Shown piece by piece: positions 7,733 through 52,046 of a stretch of 64,000 bases of DNA. A program made the position numbers and the translations under genes. The DNA comes from Chrysochromulina tobinii. Taxonomy: Eukaryota. The notes under the pieces were generated by a model. That model made no database searches and was not told where the DNA came from. It saw only the letters and a program-made list of their open reading frames with translations. The stretch spans positions 1 to 64,000 of the forward strand of contig JWZX01003325.1 of assembly GCA_001275005.1 (NCBI GenBank). Direction: 5' to 3'. Numbering within the stretch: position 1 is the stretch's first letter; the number at the start of each line of letters is the position of its first letter.

Positions 7733-7769
<37 letters not shown>

Positions 7770-18478: not shown

Positions 18479-18543
<65 letters not shown>

Positions 18544-23394: not shown

Positions 23395-26300
23395 TCACGC
23401 CCCCGGCAGGTCAACCTGGAGTGGGTGGCCCGTCGACACCCGCTCCGCGATCGCCTCATGAAGGTGAGCCAGCCCCGCGGACTCGAGCGGATTGTGTAGC
23501 AAGCGCAACACAGCCAAGGCCGAGTTGGCACGTAGCGCGATGGCGAGTGCAGCGGCACCTTCACTGGTGACGCCGGCTGCGCTCAGATTGACCTCGCGCA
23601 CCATAGCATTGTGCTTGAGCACACCGGCGAGCATGCAAATCGCGCCCGTGCCCATGGCCGTCTCCTCCAGGCTGAGCTTCCTGATGCCCTCGAGCACATC
23701 GAAGGCGTTGGTGCGTGCGAATCGCAGGCTAAGAGGGCTACCGGGGTCGAGAAGGCTCCTGCCCAGCGTCCCGAGCACTGAGTCGGCCACCGGCGGCCAC
23801 GCTCGCACGTCGAGGAACGTGAGCGACGCATTGGCATGCAAGCCAGCGCACAACACTTTCCAATCCACCATCTGCAGCCCAGTATAGCTCAGGTCGAGCG
23901 ACCTCAGCACGCAGCTCGGGCTGCGCAGCCACGCCGATGCGGCCGCACTCGCATCATGCTCAAGAGGATTCGAGCCCAGATGCAGCGCCGAGACCATCTT
24001 GCCCATGCGTGACGAGTGGATCTCGGAGATGAGCTTGGCGGCCTCGAGCCTCTTCTCGAAGTGGCCATACTCACGGCTGCCAAGCTCGAGGCTTCTCCTT
24101 CCCTGAGGATCACCGTCCTCGGCCGTTGTGGACGAAACCTCGCTGTAGTCGGCCGTTGCGGACGAAAGCGCGCCGGAGGCGTCGGGTCGGAAGTGGACCC
24201 ACTCGCGAAAGTTGAGCCCGAAGCTTTCCATCGAGAGTGTCGCCGCCTCAGGCAGCGGCAGCGCCACGTCAGAGGAGCCTATGAGCACGAATCGGTGGCC
24301 GGAGAGCATCAGCTCCTTGTGAACGAAGGCCTCGATGATCGGTCCCATGAAGGCCACGTCATCTTGCAGCGCGTACTCGACGACCACCACGAGCGCGCAC
24401 ATGGAGAGCGCCTGCAGCAAGAGCTCCCGCACTCTGGCGCCCATCTCGGCGCTCTCTCCAAATTTGGAAGCCGCCAGCCCGATGAGCTCGCGCAGCATCG
24501 CGCCCTCGTCGATGAGCTGATGCACGCGGTTCATGTTGGCTGTGATGAAGGATGCAATCACCGCGTGCCGGAGCAGCAGCGGCACCAGCGGCACGGTGCC
24601 CGCCTCGTCGGCATCGCGCAGCGTTGCTGTGAGCTTGTACAGCACGTTCGTCAGCAACCACTCGCGCTGTGCCTGATGCACCGAACCAGCGCGCATTTGC
24701 ATCGGCTCGACGCTGTGGAAGCCCAACGGCCGTTTCGGCGACGGCTCGGCCAGGATGGCGACCACGTCGCGCACGCGGCGCACACCTTCGAGCTTGGGGT
24801 TTGCGGACGCCGTATGCGGCGTTACGAAGACCAACTGCTTCGCCACCTCGACGCGCTTGCCGCTAAAGGCCTCGACGACCGTTTCGTGCGCCTGCAGCAG
24901 CGCCTCACAGTACGCTGCCCGTGCCGCGCGGTAGTCGGACACCGAGCGCATGCAACTCGCAGTGGGGGAGGTGGCGTCCGGCCCGTCCAAGCCCATGCTC
25001 GTGTGGTTATACTGGTTTAGGTCGGCCTCGAGCAGCTGCCCCGTCTCGACCAACTGGAGTTGATGGCGCGCTCCAAACTGGAGCCACTCGACCACCACGG
25101 CGTCCACGAGCCCCGCCTCTTGATGCAAGAAGAGCAGCCGGCACCCAGGCTCGTAGTGCGCCGCCGTGATCGGCCGCACATTGATCGGGCTCGCGTCGAT
25201 GAGCAGCTCGCCGAATCCCGCGAAGACGGGCTGGGCCGGGTCGCGCGCCTTCTTCTTGAAACTCGCCGTCGATTGACGAACCATGTTGCGCGGCTTGGGG
25301 CGCTCGCTGCCCGCCGAGCCGGTGGCTCCGTCGGCCAGTTGAATGTTATCGATGCGCACACGCAGCCGGTCGTCATCGAGAAGCTCGATGACCGTGCCGC
25401 ACCCGAGCAGCGGACCCGATGCGCCGTTGGGCCCGCGGCTCACCACGCCCCCCTCATTGGAGCGCACCTGAAGCCGCGTGCCCTCCGCGCATGCAAACGC
25501 GAGGTGCGGCACGAGCTCGAGGTAGATCGATCTCCCAGAGATCTCCCGGTCGAGCTTGACGATGAGGGTGTAGTCGTCACCGCGCAGCACCTGATGAGAC
25601 AGAGGGAGTGGCAATCAGATGACAATCACATGGCCATCAAATGGCCATCAGATTGGATCCCCGAGATCTTCTGAAGAGGCGGAGGTCATTGTGTGGTAAT
25701 GAGTGCCCGACGAGAGACGATGAGTGGCAATCCAGGGCACTCCAGGGCACTCCAGGCCAATCAAGGCCAATCAGCGTACTGAGGCGAGCTGGCGCTCGTC
25801 ATCAATCATGTGCCACTCGTTCTTCAACTGCAGGCGCCTCTCGAGATCGTCATTGACGTTGAGCAGCTCTCGAGATTCGAATCGGTGCTTCTCGGGCGAC
25901 TGCTTGGCGGAGGCGCGCGGGAGGAGCTTGCCCACGACGTCGTCATTGACGGTGACCAGATCGATCTCGCGGTCGCCCGGTATGGCAACGAGCTCGTCGC
26001 TCAGCACGTGCGCGGCGCCGCAGCAGTTGTAGAGCAGCACCACATGGCCCACGTCGGACACGTGGTAGTGCCGGCTGAGCCCCTCCTTGAGCGGGCGCAG
26101 TGTCGGGCGCTTGGGCCGCGCGTTCAGCTCGCGCTTCGGCCACTTGCCGTTGCGACGCGGGCCGCCATCGTCGCCCTTCTGCTGTCGGACGAAGCTGCCC
26201 TCATCCTCTGGATGCTCGGCAAAGTACTTTTTGAGGGCTGGGACGCCCCCGGTGAGGGAGGTGCCCAGTAAGGGCACCAGATGCCGATCTCGCTGCGCGA

Positions 26301-29300
26301 GGAGCTCGAGATCGTGGTGGAGATTGATCATGTCGCGCGGCAAGGTGCGCAGCTTCGCGTTATCCGAGATGTCGAGCTTGCGCAGCGCGCTCAGGTTGCC
26401 GATCGCGGGTGTGAGTTGCGTCAGGTGATTCGCTCGCAGGTTGAGCGAGCGCAGTTTCGTCAAAGTGCCGATGCTTCCCTGGAGACGCGTGAGCTGGTTC
26501 GATTGCAGATTGAGCTCCTTGAGCGCGAAGAGCGTCCCAATCTTGGACGGGAGCTCCTGCAGCTGATTCCTCTGCAGCGAGAGGTGCTCGAGAGAGCGCA
26601 GCCGGCAGATCACCTCCAGATCGTAGCTCGAGCTGAGCTCGTTCTCATCGAGGTTGAGGGTCTCAAGGTGTGTCATCTTGCTCACCGCCACAAAGAGAGA
26701 CTGCACCGAGCCCATCGGCGGCGCCACGCTGTCGGCCGTGCTTTCGGCCGCGGCCGATGCTGCGCTCAGCACGCTGCCCGCCGCAACAAGCACCATCGTC
26801 GGCGCACGTCCGACGGCCTTGCCAGGCTCGCGCAGCCCGAGGCCGTTCTGACTCAGATCGAGTAGTTTGAGTGGCGCGTGCTCGAGCGCCTCGACGATCG
26901 GCTGCGCGCCGGTGGCTTGCAACCGATTCTTGGCGAGGCGCAGCGATTTGAGCGTCGTGTTGGCACGCAGGATCGCGCTGAGCGTCAAGCCCGAGATCTC
27001 GCCGAGATCGTGGCTGCTCAGGTCGATGGAGACGGCCGCCTGCGGTCCACGTGTCAAGTGAATCGGGATGGTCTTGCCATCGAGCGTGACCGCCGTGAAG
27101 GCCCCGTGCGCCCGGATGCCCTCCGCGAGCGTCCGCATGTCCTCCGGCGCAAAGGTCTCGAGAGGCGCGCTGGCAAGCTCGAGCTCTGTGAGCGAGCTGT
27201 TGTATCGAAGCGCCGTACCGAGCGCACGCACGTCCGCGGCGCGCTCGGCGGCGCGCATGGCGAGGCGCAGCTTCCTCATCGCACCTGTGGGGAAGAGGAG
27301 ACAAGGCGCCGTGGTGAGCGATTGCATGCAAGGCGAGCGCGCACGGCGAGGCGCAGCTCCCTCATCGCACCGTTGTGGCGCAGCAGCCCAAAGAGGAGGA
27401 GCAAGGCGCCTGGCTCGAGGGAGCTCTGCCGGCTCGTGGGGTCGTGCCGAGTGCTGATCAGATCGAGCACGCCGACCTCTTCGGTGATCTCGAGCGTCTT
27501 GGCCTCCTGCTGTGCGCCCGCGGGCAGCGTGACGCTGACATACTTGAGCTTGGCCTGGCACTTGTCCGTGAGCAAGAAGGCGCCGATCCGCTCCATTTGG
27601 TCATCGGTGATCGGGTTATTGCGCAGGTCGACCGACGTGAGCGATCGGTTCTGCGCGAGGCTGCGGAAGAGGAGTACGCCCGAGATCTCATTGCTCGAGA
27701 GATCGAGAGCGCTCAGGGTGCAATGCGGGCTATTCAGCGCCGCCACCATGTTGTCCAGCTTTGAGTCGACGAGGTTATTGGACGCGAGGCAGAGCTTCGT
27801 CAAGTTGGGGCACATGCCGCTAAGCACGTGGTCGAAGAGCTGTGGGGAACCTCGCGCGCCCAGATTGACGCCATTCAAATCGAGCGTGCGCAGCGACGAG
27901 GTCTTGCACGCCTGCATGAGCTCGAGCACTTTGCCGCCCTCGGCGCCCTGGCCAGGGTTGAGGCGCAGGCTCTCGATCTCCTCATTCTCCGAGATGAGCT
28001 CGGCGACGAAGGTGCACATCGCCTTGTCGAGCAGCTCACGGAGAAACTCGGTGGCTGAAGAGGTGCCATCGCTCTTGAGAGATGGGCACAGGTCCACGCG
28101 CGACACCTTTGTCGAGCCGTTGAGGCTCTGCAGGTCGAGCTTGATCTTACGCGCGCGGCTCGGATCTTGCGTGTCCATCTTCTCGAGATAGAGGTTCTTG
28201 AGCGTCTTGTTGGCGCGCAGCGCGATGGCGAGCACATCCACATGCTCGGGCCCGAGTGACTGCAGCGTGAGCGACACAAGGGTGCGGTTCGCCTTGAGCA
28301 GCCCCGCGAGCAGGCACCACGAGCGCGTGGATCGCACTTGCTCGCGATTCTTGAGGTCGAAGGTGATCTCTTTGAGGTACGCCTTGAGGCCATAGTTGCT
28401 GCACAGCCCGAGACGCCCGTGAGGGCTGCTCAGCAGCGCCTTGCCGAGGGTCTGCCGGTCGTCATCTTGGAGTCCTTCGCCCTCGAAATTGAGCTCGGTG
28501 AGCGTCGAGTTGGCACGGAGCAAGCCAGCCAACATGGTCGCGTCAGAGCGGTCGGCATTGGCCGGCCACTGCAGCGACGTTGCGCTCGAGGTGAGGTCGA
28601 ACAAGTCGACCTTGAGCGCGATGAGAAGCGGAGTGGGACGGTGGAGAAGCACGCGCCCAATAGCCTCCTTGGCGCGATTGTCGAGCTTGCCGAATCCGTC
28701 CTTCTCCTCGATCCCGATGTCGGTGAGCGTGGGGTGCTGGCGCAGGAGCCCCGGCAGCTCCTTGCAACGACCTGGCTGGTTGAAGCTCAAGTCGAGCTTG
28801 ATGAGCGACTTGCAGGTGGCCAGCGCGGTGCACACCGCCTTCATCCCCTTGTCGCCCAGCCCATTATTGCTCAGGTCGAGCTCGGTGAGCGTCTCGTTGT
28901 TCGAGAGCGCGCGCGTGAGCTGCTGCTTCTTCCAATCCATCTTGCCGATCAAATTGGAACGCAGCTTCAGCGTACGCAAGGACGTGCCGATCGTGAGGAG
29001 GGTCGAGAGCCCCGCATCCGACTCGTCATTCTCCTCGCCCACCTTGTTGCTTGACAGGTCGAGCGAGCGCAGGTGCGAGGAGGTGAGCAGCCAGAGCGCG
29101 CGCTTACCACCCGGGGTGAGCCTCGCCTCCGGTTCCGTCGCAAAGTCCCAATCGTGCCGCTGGAGCGCGAGCAGGTCGCCCAGCTTGCGCGCGGAGATGC
29201 GGCACGTGTTGTTCATGAACGGGTCGTTGACAAAGCTCGCCGCGCGCACGTCGGTGCTCCAACCGTCCCACTGGCCGTCACGTGCCTTGAGGAAGAGGAA

Positions 29301-32300
29301 CTGCGCGAACAGCCCTTCCTGGAAGGAGAGATGCTTGAACTGGTACTGCGCTTCCGCCTCGTCGGTCTGAGCCTCGAGCGTCTTCATGAGCGGAATGCCG
29401 CCCTCCTCGTTGTTCAGGTGCAACCAGAGCGTGAGTGCCTCGGAGAAGGGCATTTCCTTGAGAAGGGCGCGCGCCACGTCCCGCGCGCCGAACTGGCGAC
29501 GGCCTTGCTGCTGGTTGACTACGGCCACATGGCGCAGCATCACGAGCCCCGTGTTGTGGATCGAACCGCCATCGCGAATGAGCTTCAGGTTCGACTCGGC
29601 GAGCGCCATGATGATGCTGCGCAGTTGCTTTGGCATCGCGAGCTCGCACGCGTTGAGCACCGTCCGCGCTGCACCGTGGCGCGCCATATTCAAATACTTG
29701 GCCGCCTCCCGAAAAATGTCATACAGTTCGTTGTCGCCTCGATGCTGGCCCTGCTCGACGCTCTTGTGCACGGCCATGTCCCCGGTCGTGATGCCCTCGC
29801 CCTGGTCGAGGGATTTCTTGCGTGACTGCTTGCGCTCGCGCTTCTCACTGTCCAGCGACGACTGCACCGCGAGCGCTTTGGTCCGGTCCAGAGCAAACAG
29901 CTGCTGCCAGATCTGCACGAGCGTGCGCGTCGCGAGGGCGTCATCGTACACGATGCCCTCGGCCGAGTTGCCGCCGCCACGCACGCCGGTCACGGCCGTG
30001 TACGCTGTAAAAAAGCGTCGGTCAATGGCATGCATGATCCCCATCTCATACAGCTCGAACTGGTTCGTGGGCAGTTCGGCGAGGTCTTCGCCCCCCGAGG
30101 TGAAGATGAGCACGAGCAGTGAGAGCAGCACGGGGATGCCGGAGGCATCGACGAGGAAGAGCAGCGCAGGCTCGAGCAGCGCGTCGATCCGATCTGGCTC
30201 GAGCTTGCCTTCCATTTGCTGCCGGAAGAAGTGGTAGTGCTCGCTTGCATTCGTGTGGCCCGAGGAGCCGACGGCGAAGATCTCCTTGTAGTGCAGCTCG
30301 CACCGGCACTCGACCTCCGTCAAGCCGTACGTGAGCAGCATCGTGGCCTTGAAGGAGCGGAAGTGCGTAGGGTCGAGAGAGATGAACCCGTTCTGGAGCT
30401 CCGTCATGGTTAGCACGGCGTGAGGCTCTGACTCGATCCTGACCTCGCGTGGGTCGATCGGCCCATGGGCGGCGGGCCCTTGGACGCTCGAGTCCGCGAG
30501 CGCCGCCTCGGGCGCGCCTTCCTCGGCCAAGTTGCCCACGAGGCGCGCCACGAACCAAACGAGCGTCTTGCCCTTCTCAAAGATCACGCGGCAGTGCAGC
30601 ACCTCCGGATCGTCCTTCTGACCTCGGACGATCTCCACGCTGCCCGCGGCGCCCGCGTCTTTCTCGGCGCTGCCCGCGACTGCCTCGGCAAGCGCGTGGC
30701 GCAGAAGCATGTCGAAGACGGCCCAGCGGCGCTCGCGCGGCATCGTCACCTTCTCCTTGGAGTGGCGCACCGACACCGGCGTCTTCGCCGAGGAGGGGAT
30801 TGGCTCGTAGTTCGTCTCCGAGGTCTCGGGGTTCTCCGCACGCACGGGCAGGTAGAGAGCTTCGAGCTCAGATCTGACACCCTCACTCAGCTTCTGGTAC
30901 GCCCTGTCGAGGCCGCGCCGCATCTCGCCGAGGGCGAGCAGGTGGTCGAAGAACTCGGAGCCGCGCATCTGGGTGCCGATCACGGAGCGTTGCTGCTCAT
31001 TCGAGAGCTCCTTCAGGTCCAGCACCGAAAAGTGGCGATCGAGATACGGGTCCATATTCCCAATGCCCTCGACGCGGGAGGTGATGAGCACTCGATTTCC
31101 CGAGGGCACCAGAACGTCTAGGACGAAGGACTCGACCATCCTACGCAGCCCGGCCGCCTCATCGACGCCGTCGAGGATCACGATGAGCGCGCGCAGCTGG
31201 AAGGCTTGCTTGAGCATCTCGGCGACACGCCGATGCACAGCGTCCACGTACGAGCCGAACAGCGCGTGCACACCCTCGCTCGAGCCCGCCGTCGCGTCGC
31301 GGAGCAGGTAGACGATCTGTTGCACGTACAGCACAATCGGGCACAGCTTCATGCCCTTGTGCTCGGACCCTTTGGCGAGGGTCTCTCCCAAAATATACAC
31401 GGCCTGCTTGCACATCCACGTCTTGCCGGTGCCCGGCCCAGCGCGCACGAGGCACGCCTGCGACGGATGCTCGCCACTCCCGCGCTTCGGCGAGGGCATC
31501 GTGAGGATGGAGACGAGCGCCTGCACATTCTTGACCGGCTTGCCCAGGAGTGTGTTCGTCGCGCCGCCTACGGTGGAGGCCTTGACATCCACGTTCACTA
31601 GCTGGTCCTTGATCGCGAGCGTGTTGCCCGTGATCGCGTCCTCGACCTTCTCGTTGCGCGCGACCATGTCGAGGCAGTGCTGCACGCGCTGCTCCTCGTA
31701 GTCGGCCACGGTCTCGAAGCGCGGCTGGCAGTGGTTGTACTCGTTCAGATCTGCCGCCACGATGCTCACCTTGTCCTTCACAGTCATCTCGACCCAATGC
31801 CGATTACCCGCCTTCGGATCGGGTCGGTTGCCCCCTTTGTCATCCTTGCGCCTCTCGCTCGTCTCCTCCCATTCCTTTTTAGGCATCTCGACCACGCACG
31901 CGTCCACGCACTCGTCGTTGTGCAGGTACAAGATGGGGGTCGCCTTGGGGTAGCGCACCGTCGTCGTGGGCACGCATCGATCGGGCCGCGGGTCGACAAT
32001 CTTTTCCTCGGTGGTCGCATCCACACGCACCACGACGGTGTCGTCGCGTAGCACCCGTTGCACTGTCGACACACGGCCGCAATAGTCGCCCGGCGCGATC
32101 AGAGTGAGCCGCGCGCCCACGCAGCACGCGTACGCGAGCCACGGGCTGACCAGCAGGACGGCCCGCTGCACATGTCCCGGACGAAACTGGGGCGCCGTGA
32201 CGGGCGCGCCGCGAAGCGCCACTGCCCCCCCCTTGACGGGTGGAGCCGCTTCGTCCACCTCAATCTCCCATTCGAGCTCGAGCTCCAGCGTGCCTGGCCC

Positions 32301-35300
32301 CTGCCGAAAGTGGTGCACCAATCCGTAGTCGACCCCGGGCAGCCAGCGGTGTTCAAACGAGACACGCTCCTCGAAGGGGAGGCCCTTTTTGGCGGGAATC
32401 TTGACCTTGCCGAGCGTCGCACCATTGCGCGCGAATAGGCTGTACTCGTACTTCTCAGGCAGCGTCGACGTGTCGCCGATGACCAACTTGAAGCGCGCCT
32501 TGTTGCAATTAAAGAGGAGCAGCATGCCCGCCCCAACACCATCGAGCGACGGCGCCTGCACGTGGCGCGACTCTTGCTTGTCCATCAGAGCCGGTGGCCG
32601 CTCTTCGTCGCGAAGCTTGAACTCGCGCACCATCTGCTTCGCGTCCGCATGGTCGATCCTGGGCGGTCTGAGCTTCCTCTCCGGCTCGCGCTCCTCAACG
32701 GGCTTCGTCACTATCAGAGTCGCGGGGCGTTTCACGTCCTTGCCAGCGCGACGAACGGGCGCGCCCGTTACGGCGCCTTCGCGCTTCTCCTCCTTGCTGG
32801 ACCCACGCGCGCTCTTCAACGCCATCGACACGCTCGCTGGGCCTCCGAGGCTACCGCGCAGGGCGGCCGCGCCCGCGTCGCGACGAGTGGCCGTGGTCTC
32901 GGCTGTGGGAATCGTTTTGCGAGCCGTCAAGTTGCCTTCTTTGGCAGCTGATGGCGCCTTTTGTGGCGTCCCCTTGCGCGCGCTGTTGCCGCCCTGGGGC
33001 TTATCGGCATCGACGCTCTCGCCCTCAGCATGGTCCGCCGAGCTGCTGCCCTTTACGGTCGATGCCGTCCGAGGCATCGTATCGGGCGTCGCATTGTTCG
33101 GGTCGCGCGCCGATCGGTCGCCAAGAGAGGGGCGTGGCCCTTTGAACGGGTTCTCGCGCTTCGCGCGCTTCTTAGGTTCGAGGGGAACTCCTGTGGAAAG
33201 GGGGGGGGCGCCGTGGTGAGTACGCGCCTGCATGAAGTGCATCTTTAAGGTTCGAGTGGAGCTCGAGCTGCGGCGGCCGCAGCCGGCTCACCCTCGTTGC
33301 TAAGCGCCAGGGTCGGCATGGGAGGGCTCGACCCCGCACTAGGTGCCGGGGGTTCGGTGCCACCGGCGGAGAGCTCGTCTGCATCACTGACCGGCGTGAG
33401 ATCCGACGGCAGTGGCGGCGGTGTATCGGCTCGCGCGATCGCCCCTGAGGGTGGCGTGGCGGGTCGATCTTCCCCTCGATCTCCATCGATCTCCCCCGAG
33501 CTCGGTCCGTCGTCGCGTACGGCGGGCTGGGATGACCCGTCGCGCGGCGTGTCCTCAATGGGGGGGGTGGCATCGCCGGCATGCTGCTGCGCGGCATGCT
33601 CGTGCACCGCGCGCTTCACAATCTCGAGTAGCTCGGCCGATGCGCGATTGCCATTCAAGTCGATGCTCAGCGGTGAGGGCGTCTTGCGCTGAGAGGCACC
33701 GAGCGCTTTGATGAGCAACTCAAGCGCCGCACTTTGGTACGTTTCAAACGAGACCCACTCACAGTCGAGGTACTCGGTGTACACCCCACATAGCCGCCCG
33801 TTAGCCAGCGAGACGTGGGTGAGGCTTGCGTGTTGGCAGAGCGCCTTGACAAGTGCGTCGAAGCCCTCCGTGTGCCACGTACCAGACGGCAGCCGCCCCG
33901 CAAAGCGAGCGCCGAGCGCCGTGGTGAGCAGGGCGGCGTCCTTCTCCGATGCGCACGCTGCGCGCACCGCCTCGGGCGAGAGAGCAATGCAGAGGAGATT
34001 GGAGGACAGGTCGAGCACGGTGAGGCTGCTCGCTCTGCGCAGCACCTCGGCGAGCAGAGGGGCGCACTCGGCGTCGAGCAGGTTGTCACGCAGGCAGAGC
34101 GTGCTGAGGCGCGTGCACACGGCCGCAACGTCCACGAGCAGCCTGCATGCACCGACGCCGAGTTTGTTGCGCGCGAGATCGAGGGAGGTGAGCGCGTGCG
34201 GCTCGGCCGACGACAGTGTCATGTGGCCACTCCGGCCGAGTGCGCTCAGCACAAGGGCCGCACCCTCGTCCTTGAGCCAATTGTCGTTCAGGCAGAGCGT
34301 GCTCAGCCGAGGGCAGCTCTCGAGGCGCATCGCGAGCAAGCCAAGCCCGTCAGGGCTCCACGAGCCTCGCCCAAGAGGGTCTATGCCGCACAGGCCGTTG
34401 CGGGAGAGGTCGAGGAGCTCAACATGGCGCGAGAGGGCGCCTTCGAGCGCTCGAGCTACCTGCCGAGCGCCTTCAGAGGCCAGACAGTTGCCCGCGAGGT
34501 TGAGCGCGCGCGCAGGCGGCTCCGGGTCCTCGGCTAGCACCTGCAATATGAGGGGCGCCATCAGAGGTCATCAGCGGGCACATCGGCGGGCATCAGCGGC
34601 ACTCCTGGGCGGGCATCAGTCAGTAGCGGGCATCAGTCGGCTGGGGTCGTCGGCCAGACCTTGGCAAGAGCATACATCTCGTCGCCGCGGAGATTGTTGT
34701 CACTCAGGTCGAGGGAGTGCGCCGCGTGCAAGAGCAACGAGATGGCACGCAGCGCCGTCGGACGATGGCCTCCCAGCTTGGCACGCAGCTCAAGGGCAGC
34801 ATCCGTCTTTGAGAGCCCGCACGCCTGCAGCAGGCCGTGCCCGAACGCGCGCCCCATTTCGGAGCCGTGGCGCAACGTGTTGCCCCACCACGCCGACCAA
34901 CGCCATGGCTCGGCTGCCCGGGGTATAAGCCGCTGCCCGTTGCAGAGCGCGCGTGCCGTGAAGAACTCCTGGAAGGAGAGGTGCGACGACTGCATCTCCA
35001 GCGGAGAGGCGCTCAGCAAGCTGAGCAGCGGCAGCCGGTCTTGGCGCACTCGCTCGCGGATCCCTTGCATCGCGTCCTGCCACTCTTGGGGGAGCTCGCC
35101 GATCGCCTTGAACACCTCCGTCTGCATGCGACGGTGCTCCACCATGCTCATCGGGCGGGAAAGTTGGTTACGCAGCCCCGCTTCATTGGGCGGTCCGACG
35201 CCCACCGAGGCGCGAGCCCTCCCCCAGAGGACCGCCCCCTTTTCCGAGGAGCGCGCTTTGTTGAGAGAGGCCATATTCCGTGTGCCATCAACGGTCGACG

Positions 35301-38300
35301 CTCGAGCTCGAGTCGACGCCCTGGATGGAGTGCCGTCTGGCGAGCTCAGATGGCTGCACGAGCCCAAATTAGGAAGGTGGCTCGACGAGTCCGTGCGTGA
35401 GCGTAGCAGATCCCCCCCCCATGGAGTAGCAGATCCCCCAGCGAAGCGATCGCTCGCAGATGCCCCTGACCGGCGGTTGAGCGACATGATACGATCGAGT
35501 TCGGCGGGCTGGACGAGGCCGATGGCGGCAAGGGCCACACGCACCTCGGTGATGATACGCTTCTCGGCTGCGTGGGCTTGGAAGAAAGTTGCCTCGAGGA
35601 GCTCACGCATCCGCTTGCCTCCCGCGGCGTGCCTTGTCTTCTCACCGCGATCCTTTCGTTCTAGTTGGTCCAGCATAGCCGAAGCCGCCACGTCGTACAG
35701 CTCAGTGATCGTCCTAGGCATCGAGATGCCCATCTCGCCGCCGTCGCTGCCACCGGTCTGCGCGGCATCGGCGACGCCGAGAGCGTACATGCTGCCCTGC
35801 TTGCCCGGCTTGCCAGCCTGCTCATCCTTCGAAGCTTGGCGCGACATGAGGATCGAGATGACCATCGAGAGCATCAGCGGGTTACCGGTCACACGATGGC
35901 CCGTATCCTGGTCAATCGGTACCGTCGTCTTCACGTACTCGATCAGCCGTTGCGCCGCTGTCAACCCAAGCACCTGTTCGCCATCAGCATGCAACCCGAG
36001 ACCACGAGAGCGAGGCCATCAGCCGCAATCCGAGCGCAAATTCAGTGGCATCTGAGGGGGGCATCTGAGGGGGCCATCTGAGGGGCATCCGATTGGGGCA
36101 TCGCAATCGCGCACCGGCTCGACGCGCGATCGGATGACCACATGCTGCTGCTCATCACTCAACGGCTTGAGCTGGAGCCGCCGGAAGTGCGCCTTAATGA
36201 AGAGCTCCTGTGGAAAGGGGGTAGGCGCCGTGGTGAGCACTTGCATGCAGCGCAGAGCACTCGAGAAGTCTCCGACAAACTACCCACCTCGGGCAGACCG
36301 TTCGGGCGCGAGGTGACCACAATGACGAACCCCTGCGGCGCGAGCACCTCAACGATGTGCTGCTCGACGCGCTGGCGGGCGTGCCCGCCCTCGTCGATGC
36401 CGTCGATGAGGAGCAGCACGCGCCGCGCCACCATCGCCTGGCGCAGGAACAGGTATAGCTCCGAGCCGAGGCCGTGCACGAGGCATAGGTAAGCGTCGAC
36501 CCAGTTCCACGCACGCTCGAAGGCGGACACCACCTGTGAGGTTCGACGAGATCGCAATCAGATGAGATCGCAATCAGACGAGATCGCAATCGCAATCAGA
36601 CGGACACAACCTGAAGTTCAATCGCAATCAGTGGGGCATGAAATCGGCCATTCCACTCTATCGTGTATCTTGCCCCAATGATTGCGATTTCATGCCCCAC
36701 TGATTACCTTTTAGGGCCATCTCACGCCATAAAAGGTAATCAGACCCTACATGGTAATCAGTGCCCATTCAGAGTCCACTCCGTGCGCCCAATCAGTTGC
36801 AGACATGCAATCAGTTGCAATCAGTTGCAGACATGCAATCAGACATGCAAGTTGCAGACATGCAACACCCACCGATGGCTCCTTCGAGAGCAGCAGCTTC
36901 TGCAGATCCTGCACCTTGATGAGCACCGGCAGCACCTCCGCTCCGTCAAGGTCGAGGGAGTGCACCACAAGCTGTGAGAGCAAGCACGTCTTACCGGCCG
37001 CTGGCCCTGCCGTGAGCAGCACGCACGAGGCCAACGGTGGGGGCTGCGAGCGCCGCACGCGCCGCGCATGCATCGTGTGCAGCCACCGGCACAGCGACTC
37101 GACACTAGTGATCTTCAAGTAGTCGTCCTCGTCCGGCGCAGGGTCGCGCTCAAACGCAGACGCAACGTCCGACACGGTGCCCGCCACGGCGCCCGCCTTG
37201 GTCGGGGCTTTGGTCGGGGATTTGGTCGGTGATAGGCCGGTCCCCGGCTGCTCGCTCTCCGCCAGCAGGTTCGCGCCCGCAATCTCGATTGGGACGCAGT
37301 GCTCCTTGACGTCGAGCCGCTTGCCGGAGAGGGCGTCCACGATGGACGCATGCTGGGCGCGCATCGTACGCGCGTGGCGCACCTGATGAGGGAGGCAATC
37401 AGGGAGGCAATTAGGGAGGCAATTAGGGCGCGCATCGTACGCGCGTGGCGCACCTGATGAGGGAGGCAAATAGGGCTCATCAGAAGTCCTCAAGCTGGGC
37501 GCGCATCGCTCACATCACACACGCAGGGCGCACCCAGAGCTCCCAATTAGGGAGGCAATTAGGGAGGCAATTAAGGAGGCAATTAGGGAGGCAATTAGGC
37601 GCACCCAGAGCTCCCGAAACGATCGGAGGGGGATCTCGCGCGGCCCATGGTTGAACGGGTCCAGGTCAAGCTCGACCAGCTGGCCTTCGCTGTTCTCGTC
37701 CTCGAAGAGCAGCAGCTTGTGCCAACCGCCCCCCACCGGTTCGACCACGTTTGCATCGCACCAGTCGGCGGCTCCGTGGATGCCCTCGACGCGAACGAAC
37801 AACGGCTGGCCGGCCGCGTACTGGCGGAGGCCGCGGCAGCCCGAGGAGATGAACATCTTGCAAAAGTGCGCCTCCATCTCCTCGCGCTCCTTGGGCGCGA
37901 GCTCGTCCCGAGATTGCATCTCGCGCAGAGCTCCCTCGAGCTCGGCTTGCCGTCTCTCGAGGGTCGCTCGCACCGCCACGAGGACCTGCAAGTCCAAATA
38001 GGCTTGCTTCCGTATCTGCAGCAGCTCGATCGCCTCCTGCAACAGCATGTGCTCGCGCTGCAGCCCGCGTAGCCGCAGCGCCGTGCGCGCCTGCTTGGCC
38101 ACGTCGAAGCCCATGCGCCAGCTGGTCGCGACGCCCATGTCGGAGGAGACGGAGGGGGCGGCGGCGCTGGCATCGGCGGCAGCGGAGACGGTCGCGGAGG
38201 AGGCAGCGGGGGCTTCCCGGAGCATCCCTGAGCTCGATTTCGTCGAACTCGTCGAATTCGTCAACACTCGAGAGATCCGTCCCGAGAATGAGCGGGAGCG

Positions 38301-41300
38301 ACCAAGCGCCGTGCTGTGGGGCTTCCTCTGTAGGACGAGCAGATCTAAGTCGTCTCGGGGCCATCGGAGCTGGAGGCCAGGGCCGCGCACGCCACCCAGG
38401 GGTGCACCTGGCTGAGCTTCGTGACTCTCGCCCGGCGCGCCACGGCCATCGCCCTCCACGCCTCCCTTGCCCGCGCCCGATACGGCGCTCGAGCTCGCCC
38501 TTCGAGCTCGTGGATCGAGCTCGAGGGCGTGCTCGATCTCGTCGCGTGAGATCATGCGCCCCTTGCGCCCCGAAGCTTCGATGCGGTGCTCGGGCGGTGC
38601 GGACCCAAGTTTATGGAGCGCCGCTACCACGGCAATCCGCGCGTGCTCCTGGAGCCCAATCTCGTAGTGCAACTGGGCAAGCGAGATCTCGATCTCCTCG
38701 ATCTCCTCGGGCTCCTCGATCTCCTCGGGCTCCGAGATCTCGGCCTCCGAGATCTCGGGCTCTGAGATGTCGGGCTCTGAGAAGAGAGTCGAGTGCGCGC
38801 TGTCCCGGTGACCGTTACGTGCGTCGCCCCGTGTTTGGAGCCCTTCGGTGCGCCACTGTTCTGCGGCGAGAGATTCGCCCCTAGATTCACGCAGACCGTT
38901 ACGTGAGAGACCGTTGCGTGACTGGGCGAGAGATTCGCCCTCACGATCGAGCTCGATCAGAGCTGCGGCGATCTCGTCTGCCTGCTGCCGCTGGGCCCGG
39001 ACTCGTCGCGCCGTCTCGAGCGCCTCCGCCGTGCCCGATACGGCGCTCGAGGCCTCCTCGGCATCCAGGTGTGCGCCTTCGGCTTCGAGGTTCATGATGA
39101 ATACTTCAAGGCCCTCGGCATTCAGGTGACCGACACTGCTCTGGGCCGCCTCGCGCTGTAGTGTGAGTAACGTCTCCTGCAGCCGGCGCGTCTCTGCGTG
39201 CAGTCCCTCGGAGATCCTTTGGAGATTTTGGAGATCCGCCTGCCGTCGGCGCACCTGGGTGCGACGGTACTCGTACCGGAGCTGCTGGAGGCGCTGTGCA
39301 CGCCCATCGTGTGACCGTCTGATTGCGTGCTGATGACGCCCCTCGTGTAGCCGTCTGATTGCATGCTGATGATACTCAATCAGGTTGCTCGTGGTGCGCA
39401 GCTCACTGCTGAGATCGCGCACGCGCCGCACCCGCCGCTCGAGCACGGGTGACGAAACCTGCGCCTGCAATCGCTGGGCCGCCGTTGCGAGCGCCGCAGC
39501 CGACATGGACGGCGCGCCGCGCAGCAAGTCACGGAGCTCCTCAGCCACTTTGACGTCACGCCGTCCCTGTTCGACGATGGTCTCGAGGTACTTACCGGTC
39601 GGATCGGGGCGCCACGGCAGCACCTGATGAGGGACGCAATTCAGAGTCCTCAGCGGTCCTCAGCGGTCCTCAGGGCAATCAGAGGCCATCAGAGGCCATC
39701 AGAGGCCATCAGAGGCCATCAGAGGCCATCAGAGGCCATCAGAGGCCATCAGAGGCCATCAGAGGTCATCAGAGGCCATCAGAGGCCATCAGAGGCCATC
39801 AGAGGCCATCCTCCGCGGTGCTATGCGGCCATCCGAGATGGCAACGATTGGCAATCGCGGTCCTCCGTGGCAACGAGTGGCAATCGCGGTCCTCCGTGGC
39901 AACGAGTGGCAATCAACCTACCAGCTGGCTGAAGATGTCAAACGAGAGCGGCTGTACCACAAGCTCGGGGGCGAGGACGCCAACGACGCCGATGGTTTTC
40001 GGCCCGAGCTGCGAGCCCACCACGAGCCGCTCAGCACAGCGCGTTTGGGCGGCGGCACCGTCCTCGTGGCCATCAGTGCTCGCACTGGGTCGCAGCAGCA
40101 TGGGAGCGCCCTCTGCGAGCATCAGCGTGCTCTTGAAGGACGCTGCTACCATCGGCGGGGGACGCGGCCGGCGCGCGAGCACTGTTCGCAGAGCGTCGGC
40201 GCATCGGCGCACTGTGTGCCATGCGACGCGCTTCTTGTCGGTGGATAGGTCGACGTAGCGAAGGGTTGAGAGCGAGCGGTGCAACATCACAAAGAGGAAA
40301 TTGCATGCATGTAAGTCCGCAGGCTCCACCGCCGCATGCGCCTCTGTCGGGTCGTCTGAGCGCGAGCGGTGGCTGCACTTGGCCACCAGCTGGAAGGCGA
40401 GCTTGAGCACGCGTGCCGCGAGATCGAATGTCATTCGCTGGTGCTCGGCCCATGTGGACGGCGCGACCTGGTCAAACATTTCCCACAGCTCGAGCGGCTC
40501 GGGCGGTGGCTCGGGCAGCTGCGAATCGAGGGGCATCTTGTCACTTCCCCACAGTAGCCGATCGACGATCTCGCACGCCTCAGTCATGCGGCGCTCGCAC
40601 ACGGCTGCGTCGTGGACCAAACCGTCCTCGAGCAGCTGAAGCAGCCTCGCGTCGCCATCCTCAATGCAAGCCGCGTGCAGCTCGGACCGAGATCGCAACT
40701 TCGATTTGCGCTTCACGAAGGAGGAGGAGGAATCGTCCTGTCCGCCGCGCGCCGAGAGAGAGCCCAACATATTCCTCAGGCCGTGCTCCTCCGCGTGCTC
40801 CTTCGACGTCCTTGACGCCCTACTCTTGAACGACGAGTGCTCGTCAGCCGGGGCGACGACCTTGAACTTGAGTCGGTTGGCAACATCCTCCTTGATGCCC
40901 AGCCTGTCCTCGAGCTGGCGCGAGCTCGCTGCGTGCACTTCGTCAATCGACATAGGGATCGGATAGTACTCAAACAGGAGGACGCTCACCATCTTGGCCG
41001 CGTCGTGGAAGGGCATGTTCACACCGGCCTTGGCAAAGTCGATGAGCCACAGGCGGTCCTTGACGTCGACGAGCACATTGGCCGCATTCAAGTCACCATG
41101 CTGGTACAAGCGGAGTGGCTGCCACTCGGCAAGCCACGCGACGTCGTCGCCGCCCGTGCCGGACGAGATTGCCTCGAGCTGATGCAGTAATGAGACGAGC
41201 GGCTGGCAATTCACATCCGACCAGACGAGGCTCGGCACGTCGAGCACAAATGAGGCGGCAAACTTGTCGCGCTTGGCCACGCGAGACACATCAATGATGC

Positions 41301-43232
41301 GTTTCTGCTGCAGCTGCGCCAAAGCTGCCTGGACGTTGCTCGGTGGCTCATACTCCCGAGCACGCTCGTCCCGCACCCAGATGGCCGAGCCGGCGGGCGG
41401 CTTGTCAAAGACGATCACCATCGCCTTGGCGGTCGCGCGCAATTGCGTCGCAATCAGCCCGTCGAGCGCGACTGCATTGTAGAGGTCCCGCTGCACGGTC
41501 TTCAAGGCGAGATTGGCGAGCGCGCCGCCATGCCCCCACAGGTCATTCAGCACATCCATCGCCTCGCGTTCCCACTTGATCGTCGGTGGGCCCAAGGAAG
41601 CCTTGAGGGAAACGTGCGATTGCGCAGCCTCCTCCTCGGGTACTTTTTGGTGCATCTCGCGGATGAGTCGCTTCTTGAATGTGGCGAGCAGCTCGACCTC
41701 GAGCTTACCGAAGAATTCGGGCAGCACCCAGCATGCACCTGCCATCTCGAGCACCACTGCGCCGTAACCGATCGACTCGTCGACCACGCTGCGCGAGGGC
41801 GTGCCACTTGCGGAGGCCAGAGCGCGCGCTGAAGCCGCGCTGCGCGCCGTGCGCGCCGTGGCTGTCTCGCGCGCCGTGCCCAGCGCCATGTCGCGCCCCT
41901 GGCTGTCGACAAACTCAGGACCGCGGATGAGCTTGATGGCCTCGGCGCCCACGAGGTGCGAAATCTCCTCGGTGCGGCGCACCTCTTCGATCATCGAGTC
42001 TGCATAGTCGAGCTTGGTCACGGTAGGCTCATTAGGACGGCCCTGCATGTCGCGGCTGTCCGTCTGCAGCACGAGCGAGCCGGAGAAGCCGCCGTGCAGC
42101 TTGGTCGCGGTCACGTGCGCACGGCCGGGGAAGAGGCGCTCGAGCAGCCTCACGAGGGGTTGTTTCGCATAGTTCGGCTGCGCGAGCACGCCGCGCAGCT
42201 CAATGACGGACGAGAAGAAGCGCGGCGGCAGGTATCCATTCTCATCACCCTCGCACAGGATGACGCCATTCGTCGACTCGAAGAAACGGATCCCGTGCTC
42301 AAGCGCACTCGAGATGTCCACCCAAATGTACACAGCGCAGTCGTGGCGCATCCCCGAGATGACCGCCTCCTCCCCTAGCAAACCTTTGGCCAGGTGGATG
42401 TGGTGCCGTTCCATCTTATGCAGCCCCTGCGCGAGGATCTGCCGGAGCGCCGTGATGGTTGTGCCGTGCACCGCAAATGGGACGCTCGCCTCTTTTGTTT
42501 CGCTGTCAAACGTGATCAGTGTGCCAATCTGCTCGCCGACCTGCTTCATCGAATGGCCCTGCGCCGCCCGGATCTGGTACACTCCACCAGCCGTCGGCTG
42601 CTCACGCAACTCAAAGCGCTGCTTGTCATTGAGCCCCACCATCGCGTGCACGTGCTCCTCGGTCCACGTGCACGGCTCGCGCGGCGGTTCCGATTCGAGT
42701 GCCAGCTCGGCCTCGCGACGGTTGACATGCGCGATCGCATCAGTGAGTAGGACCCATCCGTCCGTGTCAATCGGCACGTCATATTCTTTGGCCTTGTGGC
42801 GGAGCAGCTTGCTCATCAGCTTGGAGAGCTGCACGTCATGCACCTCGCCGTACTTGCCTTTTATAATCAGCTCCGTCCCAGGCGCCGCCACGTCGTCGGC
42901 CGGCGGCGGTCGCAGCTGTGCGTCCGAGGCTGTGTCGGCGGCGAGGTGGGCTGCGGCTATGTCGATAGCTGGGAGCTGCTGCCTGGCGCTGACGTGACCC
43001 TTGGCGGCGTGGGAGGTGGCGGCGGCGGCGGCGGCGGCGGCGCCACCCTTCGGGCCGCGAGGCGAGGGAGCTCGCTTCCCGCGAGGCGAGGCTGCACGCT
43101 TGTCCCAAGATTCAACCCGAGATTCATCCCGAGATTCATCCCGAGGCGTGGCAGCTCGCTTCCCGCGAGGCGAGGCAACACGCTCGTGCGGCGCTGCGCT
43201 GCTGCTACCGTTGCTGCTACTGCTGCTGCCAA

Positions 43233-43277
<45 letters not shown>

Positions 43278-43851
43278 CTGCAATCGGAGCCGCCACGCAT
43301 TTGATCAACGGCCATGCGGCCTTGAGCTCGGGAGAGCGCGTGTCGAAAGCGCCCTCGCCGTACGATACAAAGGGCCAGTGCTCTGACCAGCCCTCCGAAT
43401 ACGAGACAAAGCCAATCGATTCCTCGCAGTCCGGGAGCGGGACTGGCTTGAGCGCCGCTCCTGGCAGACTGGGTGCCAATGCGGCTGCGTCCGCTGGTCG
43501 CAACCCAGCCTTAGCTAACAAGTGACGTGCCACCACAACGATCGCTCGCTCAGAGGTGTTTCGCTTGGCCATGGTCAGCGCACGCTTGATGGCTAGCTCG
43601 AGCTCGGCCAACTCCGTTGCGGAGGCTGCAGGCTGGCTCGAGGAGATTACTGCTGCAGTGCCAGCGGGGCGCTTACCACCGTGCCAATCGAGCAAGAACT
43701 GGCCGAGGAAATGCAAGCGTTCGGCAGAGCTGCGAGGACTGCGAACCGCCAGGGCTGCGTTCAGCGCCAGCTGCACCTCGCGCCGCTGCTCCAGCCAGCT
43801 CATCGAAGTGACGGGGACGCAGGGCACTTGGTGCAATTTGGAGCCCTGCAT
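23395..43851 (-). CDS. Giant NLR-like (STAND/NACHT-LRR) protein, ~6,290 aa: Tpt1/KptA - APH/TCAD9-like kinase - coiled coil - 3x[linker-NACHT-LRR]; introns 39624-39921, 37383-37604, 36534-36872, 36208-36287, 35974-36114, 34541-34659, 33191-33291, 27285-27370, 25591-25779
   Basis: Nine GT-AG introns join ten consecutive ORF-track segments with correct phase; spliced length is 18,882 nt, divisible by 3. Motifs: Tpt1 LLRH/DKQRF/IRAAQGHS/HGT/MERHHIHLA; kinase GGFSGS, HGDLNAANVLV, LIDFA; Walker A GPAAGKT and GPGTGKT; Walker B LLLIDGIDE and IVILDGVDE; TSR sensor; HLSFQE twice; many LxLxxNxL repeats. Confidence 0.8.
36208..36287 (-). mobile_element. Introner-like intron, second family: TGCATGCAAGTGCTCACCACGGCGCC...TTCCACAG 3' end
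   Basis: A near-identical ~25-bp core occurs in introns of four unrelated genes (about 6301-6327, 21441-21468, 27304-27330, 33207-33233, 36225-36249, 48921-48945, 48980-49004). Confidence 0.6.
39678..39810. repeat. Intronic 10-bp tandem repeat (ATCAGAGGCC)n, ~13 copies
   Basis: Directly visible inside intron 39624-39921. Confidence 0.95.
42200..42840 (-). other. Tpt1/KptA (RNA 2'-phosphotransferase, PTS_2-RNA) domain within the giant gene
   Basis: LSKLMSKLLRH, DGWV, NDKQRFEL, IRAAQGHSM, VHGTT, GLHKMERHHIHLA, ISGMR, FFESTNGVILCEG..GYLPPRFF. Confidence 0.92.
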
Positions 43852-50500: not shown

Positions 50501-52046
50501 TTAAGGCGCTGGTGGTGGCGCAGGATGAGACGAACCGAACCATCAGCCGCGAGGCCGCCGAGCTGCGTGTGCGCGTGGAGGCGATGGAGACCGAACTGCG
50601 CATCGCGCGCGGGGCGGCCGGCGAGCTCGACCAACTCAAGCGACAGCTGAAGGCGGCGCTCGAGGCCCAGCGGCAAGCGGAGCAGAGCGCGAGTGACACG
50701 CAGCTGAGCGCCGCCGCCGAGCTGGCCGCCCTGCGCGAGGAGCTCAGCGGCCGCGCAGCGGACCTCGAGGCTGCAGTGCGCGAATCCGAAGCGATGGGCA
50801 TCGGGTACGCTCAATTGGAGTTGCAATTGGAGGTGGCGCTGCGGGAGCGCGACGCGGCACAGGCGAGCGCCGTCGCGGGCGCCAGCACGGGGGGCGAACG
50901 AGGTGTCCTCGGCGAGGGAGACCGTGCCCAGCTTCCCCACAGCGACAACGGCGGTGGCAACGACGGCGGAGGAGAGGGTGGCTGGGTAGCCAAGCTCGCC
51001 GTGCTGCAGTCGACGATCGACGGCCTGAGGCGTGCAAAGGCGGCGCTGGAGGCCACGGCGGCGGAGAGCGTCCTCGAGATGGCAGATCTGCGCCGGGAGA
51101 TTGCAGATCTGCGCCGGGAGATTGCAGATCTGCGCCTGGAGATCGAGCGCGAGCGCGCGAGCGCCGAGGAGGCTCTCGCCGCACGCGCCGTGGCCGAGGA
51201 CGCACTTGATGCCAGTACGGTAGAGGGGCAGGTGCTGCAGGCGCGCTGCCGGCAGCTCGAGGCATCCCTCAGCGACGCGACAGCGGCGCTCGGCGCGGCC
51301 GCGGCCGCCGAGAGCGCCGTGCGGGCAGCGTCTGAGCGCACTGTGGCTGAGCTCGAGGCGCAGCTGGGCGAGCTGCAGGCGCAGCTTCGAGCGGCGCAGT
51401 CGGACGGAGCGAACGCTCGTGAACAGCTGCAAGTGCTGCAGGAGGCTGCGGCGGCTGCGGCGACGAGGGCGATTGGCGCTCAGGAGGGCGCGCCGTCGAT
51501 GGCGCAGGTCGCCGGTGTGAACGAGTCCAATCAGCCTGCAATCAGGGAGGCCATCAGCATGCAAGTGGACGCGTCCAAGCTCGCGTCACTGACAGCCGAG
51601 GCGGCGCGTGCGGCGCAGCTCGAGGCGGAGATCGCCGAGCTGCGGCGCGAGCAGGATGAGCTGCTGATCTGCATCGCCGAGCAGGACCAGGTGCGGAGCA
51701 CTCGCCCTGATTGCAGGCTGATTGCATGCTGATGGCCTCCCTGATTGCGCGCCTCATCGAGCAGGAGTACGAGGCTCTGGCGGATGAGATGCTCAGTGCG
51801 GGGACGCCCTCGAGCGTTCTCGCCGGCAGCGCCTACGCCGGCGGCGCCAACAGCGGCAGCGGTGGCGCCAACGGAGGCACGCCCTTCCCCAATGGTTGCA
51901 ATCAGGGAGGCAATCAGGGAGGCACGCCCTTCCCCAATGGAGGCAACTGCCATGGCACCCCCTTTGCGACGCCCCTGACGTCGGGCGTCGTGTCGGGCAC
52001 GAGTGTGGCGACGATGCCAAGCGCGTCGCTGCTCTTTGCGTCCTGA
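47524..52046 (+). CDS. USO1: USO1/p115 (golgin candidate 6-like) vesicle tethering factor, ~1,400 aa; introns 48045-48146, 48872-49021, 51691-51764
   Basis: Armadillo-head motifs LLERLDNSTQLEDKREA, QEAILNEPTCVGRLMGLVED|SREIVRNEVLLLL, QNLLGFQGAFDKLLDII, GGVVVHDCL; long C-terminal coiled coil ending EQDELLICIAEQDQ|E. Confidence 0.9.

What the first reader, a model, noticed from the sequence alone, without database searches (positions are those of the whole stretch)
42200..42840. Tpt1/KptA domain keeps its full catalytic set despite being fused to an NLR-like protein
Seen: LLRH, DKQRF, IRAAQGHS, HGT and MERHHIHL are all present. Known: these carry the Arg-His-Arg-Arg tetrad and NAD+-binding residues of Tpt1. 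Inference: the enzyme is active and is not the small housekeeping tRNA-splicing Tpt1. It could act as an effector that ADP-ribosylates RNA or DNA ends, or repairs 2'-phosphate RNA.
Basis: partly seen in the sequence, partly recalled or inferred. Interest (0 to 1): 0.75.

Follow-up and report, generated by a model that had tools for sequence, protein, structure and literature searches.

The report
Algal NLR carrying Tpt1 and kinase
A giant spliced gene, likely from a haptophyte alga, joins an RNA-repair enzyme (Tpt1) with all its catalytic residues and a small-molecule-type kinase to immune-receptor-like switch and sensor domains, and the two enzymes likely work as a pair that adds a phosphate and removes it at the cost of NAD+ when the receptor is switched on.

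Summary
Observation confirmed. All five motifs sit at 42807-42391 (minus strand) and carry the full Tpt1 tetrad (R335, H336, R396, R466). The fusion is real: RNA contigs show seven GT-AG introns that keep one frame open for over 5,000 residues (about 6,277 with two inferred introns). The order is Tpt1, TCAD9/APH-fold kinase, NACHT, LRR, second NACHT, LRR, then a degenerate third module. The gene belongs to a family of related proteins; one relative carries the whole Tpt1-kinase-NACHT-LRR order in a single reading frame. The fused Tpt1s form a clade apart from short haptophyte Tpt1s. Among 35 relatives, all 17 with an intact Tpt1 keep the kinase glycine loop, while 8 of 9 with a decayed Tpt1 have lost it (rows not independent). 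[quoted passage not shown] Activity, substrate, immune role and a separate TPT1 in this genome are untested. Ten literature searches found no report of this architecture. New variant of a known kind; interest 0.68.

The parts
39922..43803 (-). Exon 1 (aa 1-1294): N-terminal helical part, low-complexity linker, Tpt1, kinase. The start ATG at 43803 is chosen; another in-frame ATG lies at 43851
42200..42858 (-). Tpt1/KptA 2'-phosphotransferase domain; tetrad codons begin at 42801 (R335), 42798 (H336), 42618 (R396), 42408 (R466); HGT at 42468; second NAD-site Arg (SGMR) at 42348
   Evidence: Pfam; PDB alignment; positions; model matches mouse TRPT1 at Z 19.8, rmsd 2.4, 206 aligned
40168..42165 (-). 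TCAD9-like kinase of APH/small-molecule kinase fold with Gly loop HGGFSG (42096), beta3 Lys (VTKLD, 42021), HGDLNxxN (41100) and DFA (41043)
   Evidence: Pfam TCAD9 57.5 bits vs cut-off 40; motifs; model pLDDT 87; fold searches
39624..39921 (-). Intron 1 (GT-AG), the join between the enzyme exon and the NLR body
   Evidence: 3 of 3 RNA runs, 82-242 letters on the shorter side; fourth run shows the matching loose end
37605..39623 (-). Exon 2: long, likely helical and low-complexity spacer (coiled coil not tested), then a conserved small domain ending LDPFNH that precedes each NACHT module
36873..37382 (-). Exon 3: NACHT1 Walker A (AGPAAGKT, 37007); intron 2 is 37383-37604
   Evidence: junction in 4 of 4 RNA runs
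36288..36533 (-). Exon 4: Walker B (LLLIDGIDE, 36407) and VTSRP; intron 3 is 36534-36872
   Evidence: junction in 2 of 4 RNA runs, 22 and 48 letters on the shorter side; Pfam NACHT E 2e-4 on this piece
36115..36207 (-). Exon 5; intron 4 is 36208-36287
   Evidence: junction in 3 of 4 RNA runs
34660..35973 (-). Exon 6: GNPL (35886) and HLSFQEFF (34983) motifs of the helical and winged-helix parts; intron 5 is 35974-36114
   Evidence: junction in 3 of 3 RNA runs; motif roles recalled
33292..34540 (-). Exon 7: ribonuclease-inhibitor-like LRRs; intron 6 is 34541-34659
   Evidence: junction in 3 of 3 RNA runs; Pfam LRR_6
27371..33190 (-). Exon 8: second NACHT module (AGPGTGKT 31439, LDGVDE 31175, HLSFQE 29333) and LRRs; intron 7 is 33191-33291
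   Evidence: junction in 3 of 3 RNA runs keeps the frame; module 1 vs 2 blastp E 2e-21
25780..27284 (-). Exon 9: LRRs; its joins (introns 27285-27370 and 25591-25779) are inferred, not seen in RNA
23395..25590 (-). Exon 10: third, degenerate module without Walker A Lys or Walker B Asp, LRR, stop codon; join inferred
   Evidence: module 2 vs 3 phmmer E 9e-20

Best explanation
This is a spliced gene for a giant NACHT-LRR (NLR-like) protein whose N-terminus carries a Tpt1 domain with its full catalytic tetrad directly followed by an APH-fold kinase with its catalytic residues, and the two enzymes likely form one switch-controlled output in which the kinase would put a phosphate on a ribose 2'-OH and Tpt1 would move it onto NAD+. 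Shown: sequence, splicing, domain order, intact motifs, folds of the models, a family of relatives, and joint decay of the two enzymes. Inferred from NLR/STAND biology: the LRRs sense a threat or stress and the NACHT switch gates the N-terminal enzymes. [quoted passage not shown] The substrate (NAD+/NADP, a nucleotide or RNA) is a guess; the fold favours a small molecule.
For: Seven RNA-seen introns give an open frame of 5,075 aa. RNA contig X2-20 (41684-42850) bridges Tpt1 and the kinase. P0180 holds the C-terminal part of Tpt1, kinase, NACHT and LRR in one 2,378-aa frame. Fused Tpt1s fall in one 32-row clade (SH-aLRT 99) apart from short Tpt1s named Prymnesium, Pleurochrysis and Scyphosphaera. 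Of 35 family rows with sequence before the kinase, 17 have the tetrad intact as far as covered (10 complete, 7 cut at the N-terminus). All 17 keep the kinase Gly loop, and 13 of 13 that reach it keep the beta3 Lys. Of 9 rows with a decayed Tpt1, 8 lost the Gly loop. Of 9 rows without Tpt1, 8 keep the kinase, and no row pairs an intact Tpt1 with a dead kinase. Bacterial-type TCAD9 relatives P0021 and P0022 carry a dual-specificity phosphatase and an isochorismatase domain on the same chain, again a kinase beside a phosphate remover. Precedents: ArkI kinase and KptA are writer and eraser of a tRNA 2'-phosphate (PMC9095486, PMC10622864). Tpt1 takes the 2'-phosphate from NADP(H), and the authors propose ADPR>p as a second messenger. 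Bacterial NACHT proteins carry N-terminal enzymatic effectors, NAD+-targeting ones included.
Against: No activity or substrate is shown. The co-decay rows are not independent: two pairs are near-identical, the kinase tree is poorly resolved, and the rows were drawn by a Tpt1-plus-kinase query. General relaxation of whole paralogues would give the same pattern. P0214 has a decayed Tpt1 beside an intact kinase N-lobe, and Tpt1-less members keep the kinase, so the kinase does not need Tpt1. The best fold matches are sugar and aminoglycoside kinases (Z 12-13, rmsd about 4), not an RNA or NAD kinase. No single RNA contig spans Tpt1 to NACHT. The first Gly of Walker A is Ala. PADLOC gave 0 hits for 5 proteins. 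The best solved matches for the family's LRRs include axonemal LRR proteins as well as NLRPs.
Confidence: 0.45

Rival explanations
1. Tpt1 is an integrated decoy or sensor, as in plant NLRs with integrated domains: it baits a viral or parasite factor aimed at RNA repair or NAD+, and its activity is incidental.
For: The slot before the kinase varies: Tpt1 intact or decayed, ubiquitin-like (L005, L006, L008; P0358), NUDIX-like (L010, P0215), EF-hand plus Tpt1 (P0365). Half-Tpt1 pieces sit at a second site behind the kinase in L006, L007 and L008 and match the fused clade best (up to 80% identity). Some giant and RNA viruses encode KptA (PMC9503650 passages).
Against: The tetrad is kept in 17 of the 26 Tpt1-bearing rows across deep branches. 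Tpt1 is as conserved as the kinase N-lobe between close relatives (203/209 vs 170/176 for P0002). A decoy has no reason to decay with the kinase.
Confidence: 0.2
2. Tpt1 is an independent effector: it caps 5'-phosphate RNA or DNA ends with ADP-ribose, drains NADP(H), or repairs RNA cut during defence, without regard to the kinase.
For: Complete active site. 5'-phosphate ADP-ribose capping and NADP(H) use are documented for other Tpt1s. The N-terminal position is the usual effector position.
Against: Joint decay with the kinase. Tpt1 is absent from 9 of 35 rows that mostly keep the kinase, so the kinase looks like the constant output.
Confidence: 0.15
3. The protein is not immune but a structural or signalling scaffold, for example flagellar or haptonemal, with repeated NACHT-LRR modules and enzymes that serve local metabolism.
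For: Three tandem modules with the third degenerate. LRRs resemble axonemal LRR proteins. Some relatives carry EF-hand or C2 domains. The gene is transcribed in all 14 RNA-recorded runs listed.
Against: Many paralogues, domain swapping and pseudoenzymes in relatives are typical of conflict genes (general knowledge). The NACHT is nearest to bacterial NACHT clusters (atlas score 0.97 on P0008).
Confidence: 0.12
4. It is the organism's only, housekeeping Tpt1, fused passively as fission yeast Tpt1 is fused to Yae1.
For: Precedent in PMC12810181 (passages). No organism was shown here to hold both a fused and a short copy; the two Phaeocystis-named rows are both in the fused clade.
Against: Short Tpt1s exist in three named haptophytes outside the fused clade. 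The fused domain is multiplied, decayed, lost and fragmented among relatives, which an essential enzyme would not be.
Confidence: 0.08

Closest known systems
Tpt1/KptA/TRPT1 RNA 2'-phosphotransferases (PF01885)
   Same: Full tetrad, HGT motif and two-lobe fold; closest solved relatives are human and mouse TRPT1 (E 2e-28 and 3e-27; bacterial 4e-13).
   Different: About 220 aa inside a protein of about 6,300 aa, next to a kinase and ahead of NACHT-LRR modules; a separate branch from short haptophyte Tpt1s.
NLRs and bacterial NACHT defence proteins (Kibby et al., bioRxiv 10.1101/2022.07.19.500537)
   Same: N-terminal enzyme, NACHT with the D[GAS]hDE signature, C-terminal repeats, variable effector slot.
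   Different: Effector is Tpt1 plus an APH-fold kinase; three tandem modules; Walker A reads AGPxxGKT. The main text has no hit for 'haptophyt' or 'ADP-ribos'; its supplementary tables were not seen.
ArkI kinase / KptA writer-eraser of tRNA 2'-phosphouridine (PMC9095486)
   Same: A kinase-fold enzyme paired with Tpt1/KptA around a phosphate.
   Different: ArkI is a small ePK-like tRNA kinase on a separate gene; this kinase models closer to sugar and aminoglycoside kinases and is fused.
TCAD9 kinases of vWA-MoxR-VMAP ternary conflict systems (PF19974; PMC7159879, PMC10910872)
   Same: Sequence family and active APH-type motifs; the paper suggests low-molecular-weight substrates for APH-type kinases in these systems (it does not use the name TCAD9).
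   Different: Eukaryotic, about 670 aa with insertions, tied to NACHT-LRR; no vWA or MoxR seen among the 25 long ORFs scanned.
Schizosaccharomyces Tpt1-Yae1 fusion (PMC12810181)
   Same: An active Tpt1 fused to an unrelated domain.
   Different: There the fused copy is the essential housekeeping enzyme and the fusion is dispensable; here the fused copy varies and decays among relatives.

Membership tests
Tpt1/KptA | PF01885 above the curated cut-off over its whole length | tested here: met
   169 bits vs 26; profile 2-177 of 177
Tpt1/KptA | Arg-His-Arg-Arg tetrad and HGT motif | tested here: met
   R335, H336, R396, R466, H446-G-T448
Tpt1/KptA | Two-lobed RNA-lobe/NAD-lobe fold | tested here: met
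   Predicted model, pLDDT mostly above 88 over the domain; Z 19.8, rmsd 2.4, 206 aligned to 7yw2
Tpt1/KptA | NAD+-dependent 2'-phosphotransferase activity | not testable with these tools
   needs an assay
NACHT NTPase | Walker B signature D[GAS]hDE | tested here: met
   DGIDE (module 1) and DGVDE (module 2); DG.DE in 17 of 17 relatives checked
NACHT NTPase | Walker A GxxxxGK[ST] | tested here: inconclusive
   GKT kept but the first Gly is Ala (AGPAAGKT, AGPGTGKT); Ala in 14 and Gly in 3 of 17 relatives
NACHT NTPase | PF05729 above cut-off | tested here: inconclusive
   Only one exon piece was scanned: 21.5 vs 26.7. Uninterrupted relatives score about 21-31, for example P0011 30.3 and P0180 22.5. 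Atlas top hit NACHT 0.97 for P0008
NLR-like receptor | Effector - NACHT - LRR on one chain | tested here: met
   RNA junction chain; single frame in P0180
NLR-like receptor | Ligand-triggered oligomerisation and immune output | not testable with these tools
   needs experiments
TCAD9 / APH-fold kinase | PF19974 above cut-off and catalytic Lys, Glu, HxD, Asn, Asp | tested here: met
   57.5 vs 40; motifs; atlas 0.95; fold Z 12.9
ArkI-type RNA 2'-kinase | Closest fold or sequence to ArkI | tested here: inconclusive
vWA-MoxR-VMAP ternary system | Linked vWA, MoxR and VMAP genes | tested here: inconclusive
   None among 25 of 143 long ORFs scanned; the rest of the genome is not held
Housekeeping fused Tpt1 (S. 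pombe type) | Only Tpt1 in the genome | not testable with these tools
   no genome held

The most novel reading that the evidence does not exclude
Probability: 0.25. Interest if true: 0.9.

Novelty: new variant of a known kind. Interest (0 to 1): 0.68.

Why it matters
Why Tpt1 is kept in organisms that do not need it for tRNA splicing is an open question. Jacewicz et al. (PMC10622864, section 16) propose that ADPR>p is a second messenger and say they know of no evidence that Tpt1 is regulated. A Tpt1 wired to a NACHT switch, next to a kinase that could supply its substrate, makes that idea directly testable. It would also add a new effector type to NLR-like immunity and give a first handle on receptor-like defence genes in haptophytes, a major group of phytoplankton that is attacked by giant viruses (general knowledge).

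Tried and rejected
No whole genome is held, so a stand-alone TPT1 in this organism could not be sought. The viral contig scan found 0 relatives among 43 pattern matches. PADLOC gave 0 hits for 5 proteins. Three look-ups of earlier findings returned nothing. The PDB sequence search with alignment A5 was swamped by LRR hits and showed no kinase among the 60 rows shown. ArkI was not among the top 50 folds for the kinase, which does not exclude kinship. A Dpy-30-like reading of the N-terminus was not supported: Pfam gave 0 families at E 3. In some searches and my notebook I first labelled the SGMR arginine as the fourth tetrad residue; counting shows that it is Runella Arg137 and that the tetrad Arg119 is in MERHH. 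Counts were redone, and the Fisher test rests on the wrong table. The test (p 6e-6) treats related rows as independent and is not relied on. The careful tree did not finish; all trees are quick or FastTree trees with midpoint roots and no clade test. RNA gave no junction for the last two introns; runs X1-X3 lack cover at 27380-27398, and 11 donors would keep the frame open, of which only 27370 is GT. Cluster look-ups gave only one organism name, Phaeocystis antarctica. Complex prediction was not run, because both enzymes are on one chain.

Full report
Observation. The five motifs lie in one minus-strand reading frame, 39913-43932. Pfam PF01885 covers ORF residues 365-562 with 169 bits. The nearest solved structures are human and mouse TRPT1, then yeast, then bacterial and archaeal enzymes (13 sequences). 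PMC8464070 (passages) names the Runella tetrad Arg16, His17, Arg64, Arg119 and the NAD+ contacts His99 and Thr101. Counting along the alignment puts them on LLRH, DKQRF, MERHH and HGT, that is R335, H336, R396, R466, H446 and T448. The predicted domain superposes on mouse TRPT1 at Z 19.8, rmsd 2.4 over 206 residues.

Organism. The window is eukaryotic, with spliceosomal introns and genes such as PIGA, DENN and Uso1. No genome is held. The only named members of the fused clade are from Phaeocystis antarctica, so a haptophyte is inferred. The repeat-rich introns recall Chrysochromulina, from memory only.

Gene structure. Eighteen runs hold the stretch, 14 recorded as RNA; they may be one campaign and may include the source culture. 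RNA contigs skip seven GT-AG introns: 39624-39921 (3 of 3 RNA runs), 37383-37604 (4 of 4), 36534-36872 (2 of 4), 36208-36287 (3 of 4), 35974-36114, 34541-34659 and 33191-33291 (each 3 of 3). Run X15, of unrecorded kind, shows none of the five junctions listed and reads through introns 6 and 7, as DNA would. Splicing these keeps one frame open for 5,075 aa. Two further introns, inferred only, give 6,277 aa. No single contig spans Tpt1 to NACHT, but one bridges Tpt1 and the kinase (41684-42850). The order is: N-terminal helical part, Tpt1, kinase, long spacer, NACHT1, LRR, NACHT2, LRR, degenerate third module, LRR. Walker B fits the NACHT signature D[GAS]hDE given by Kibby et al. (passages). Walker A keeps GKT with Ala for the first Gly.

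The missed domain. Directly behind Tpt1 is a TCAD9-like kinase (57.5 bits vs cut-off 40; atlas 0.95). It has the Gly loop, beta3 Lys, helix-C Glu, HGDLNxxN and DFA. Its model (pLDDT 87) matches maltokinase, aminoglycoside, choline and methylthioribose kinases at Z 12-13, rmsd about 4, so a small-molecule hydroxyl substrate is likelier than protein. Kaur et al. (PMC7159879, passages) mention active APH-type kinases as effectors of bacterial conflict systems. PMC10910872 (one passage) defines TCAD9 as associated with those systems.

Family. Searches returned 24, 53 and 426 (120 listed) homologues, 150 listed representatives and 11 loci. Of 167 proteins classified, 64 carry the kinase and 27 of these also carry Tpt1 sequence. 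P0180 has Tpt1 (N-terminally cut), kinase, NACHT and LRR in one 2,378-aa frame. In Tpt1 trees all kinase-fused copies group together (39 rows, support 97; 32 rows, support 99). They sit within a larger group of mostly short Tpt1s that includes rows named Prymnesium parvum, Pleurochrysis carterae and Scyphosphaera. The fused domain is therefore likely a duplicate of a host enzyme, not a bacterial import. These are quick trees with midpoint roots; rows under 145-150 profile positions were dropped (4 of 60; 165 domains kept from 206 proteins). No organism was shown to hold both types. The slot before the kinase varies: ubiquitin-like, NUDIX-like, EF-hand plus Tpt1, or nothing recognisable. Half-Tpt1 pieces from the fused clade sit at a second site behind the kinase in three loci.

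Co-decay. Of 47 proteins with the kinase start, 14 had under 60 residues upstream and were dropped; the window stood in for P0001, and P0365 and P0203 were added, giving 35 rows. Seventeen have the tetrad intact as far as covered (10 complete, 7 cut; P0190 keeps the tetrad but has an altered NAD site). All 17 keep the kinase Gly loop, and 13 of 13 keep the Lys. Nine have a decayed Tpt1 remnant, and 8 of them lack the Gly loop; P0214 is the exception. Nine have no Tpt1, and 8 keep the kinase. The decayed rows fall on several branches of a weak tree, and related rows are not independent, so this is a lead, not proof. It fits a model in which Tpt1 acts on the kinase's product. It also fits general decay of whole paralogues. 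TCAD9 relatives P0021 and P0022 pair the kinase with a phosphatase and an isochorismatase domain.

Mechanism. Inferred: the LRRs sense, the NACHT switches, the kinase phosphorylates a ribose 2'-OH, and Tpt1 transfers the phosphate to NAD+, releasing nicotinamide and ADPR>p. ArkI and KptA are a known writer-eraser pair (PMC9095486, listing and passages; PMC10622864, abstract and introduction). Tpt1 accepts NADP(H), and ADPR>p has been proposed as a messenger (section 16). Rivals are an integrated decoy (0.2), an independent effector (0.15), a non-immune scaffold (0.12) and a passive housekeeping fusion like S. pombe Tpt1-Yae1 (0.08; PMC12810181, passages).

Novelty. Ten searches (listings only unless stated) showed no paper on a Tpt1-NACHT fusion or on haptophyte NLR-like families. 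Passages of PMC9503650 and PMC7955679 show none either. The library lacks most subscription papers, and no supplements were read, including the Kibby tables, which could list such proteins. The design, an enzyme effector on a NACHT-repeat scaffold, is known; this effector pair appears new. Verdict: real, expressed, a new variant of a known kind, interest 0.68.

Noticed in passing
window 40102-40636: RNA contigs of X1-X3 differ from the window at many positions in the kinase C-terminal part, while run X15 mostly matches. This may be a divergent allele or an expressed paralogue.
   Followed up: no
window 16510-22545 (-): A separate LRR gene whose 1,680-aa open frame runs on into a Glyco_transf_49 domain; either a fusion or two genes sharing a frame.
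   Followed up: no
L006:2492-2710, L007:2598-2885, L008 about 5400-5700: Half Tpt1 domains (N-lobe or C-lobe) inserted in frame at the same site behind the kinase, derived from the fused clade.
   Followed up: partly
L007:2-739: A second copy of the kinase C-terminal part lies just upstream of the main gene, suggesting a tandem duplication.
   Followed up: no
L010:2278-7428 and P0015, P0193, P0269: Family members with a large insertion inside the kinase (RRM-like part in P0269) and, in L010 and P0015, a NUDIX-like domain in place of Tpt1.
   Followed up: partly
proteins P0188, P0219, P0332, P0305, P0233, P0310, P0101: Other Tpt1 fusions: four tandem copies; with PARG; with PF08719; with RRM and nucleotidyltransferase; with ankyrin repeats; with FHA; with PF00293.
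   Followed up: no
window 37820-37664, about 31950-31740, about 25155-25010: A small conserved domain ending in an NH motif precedes each of the three NACHT modules and is found in relatives; no Pfam match for the first copy.
   Followed up: partly
window 39660-39810 and other introns: Introns are filled with short tandem repeats shared with many other loci, giving very high laid depth.
   Followed up: no
window 1698-11007, 48952-58600: Ordinary eukaryotic neighbours: PIGA, CNH and DENN domains, Uso1/p115, an MFS transporter and a GT4 glycosyltransferase.
   Followed up: no
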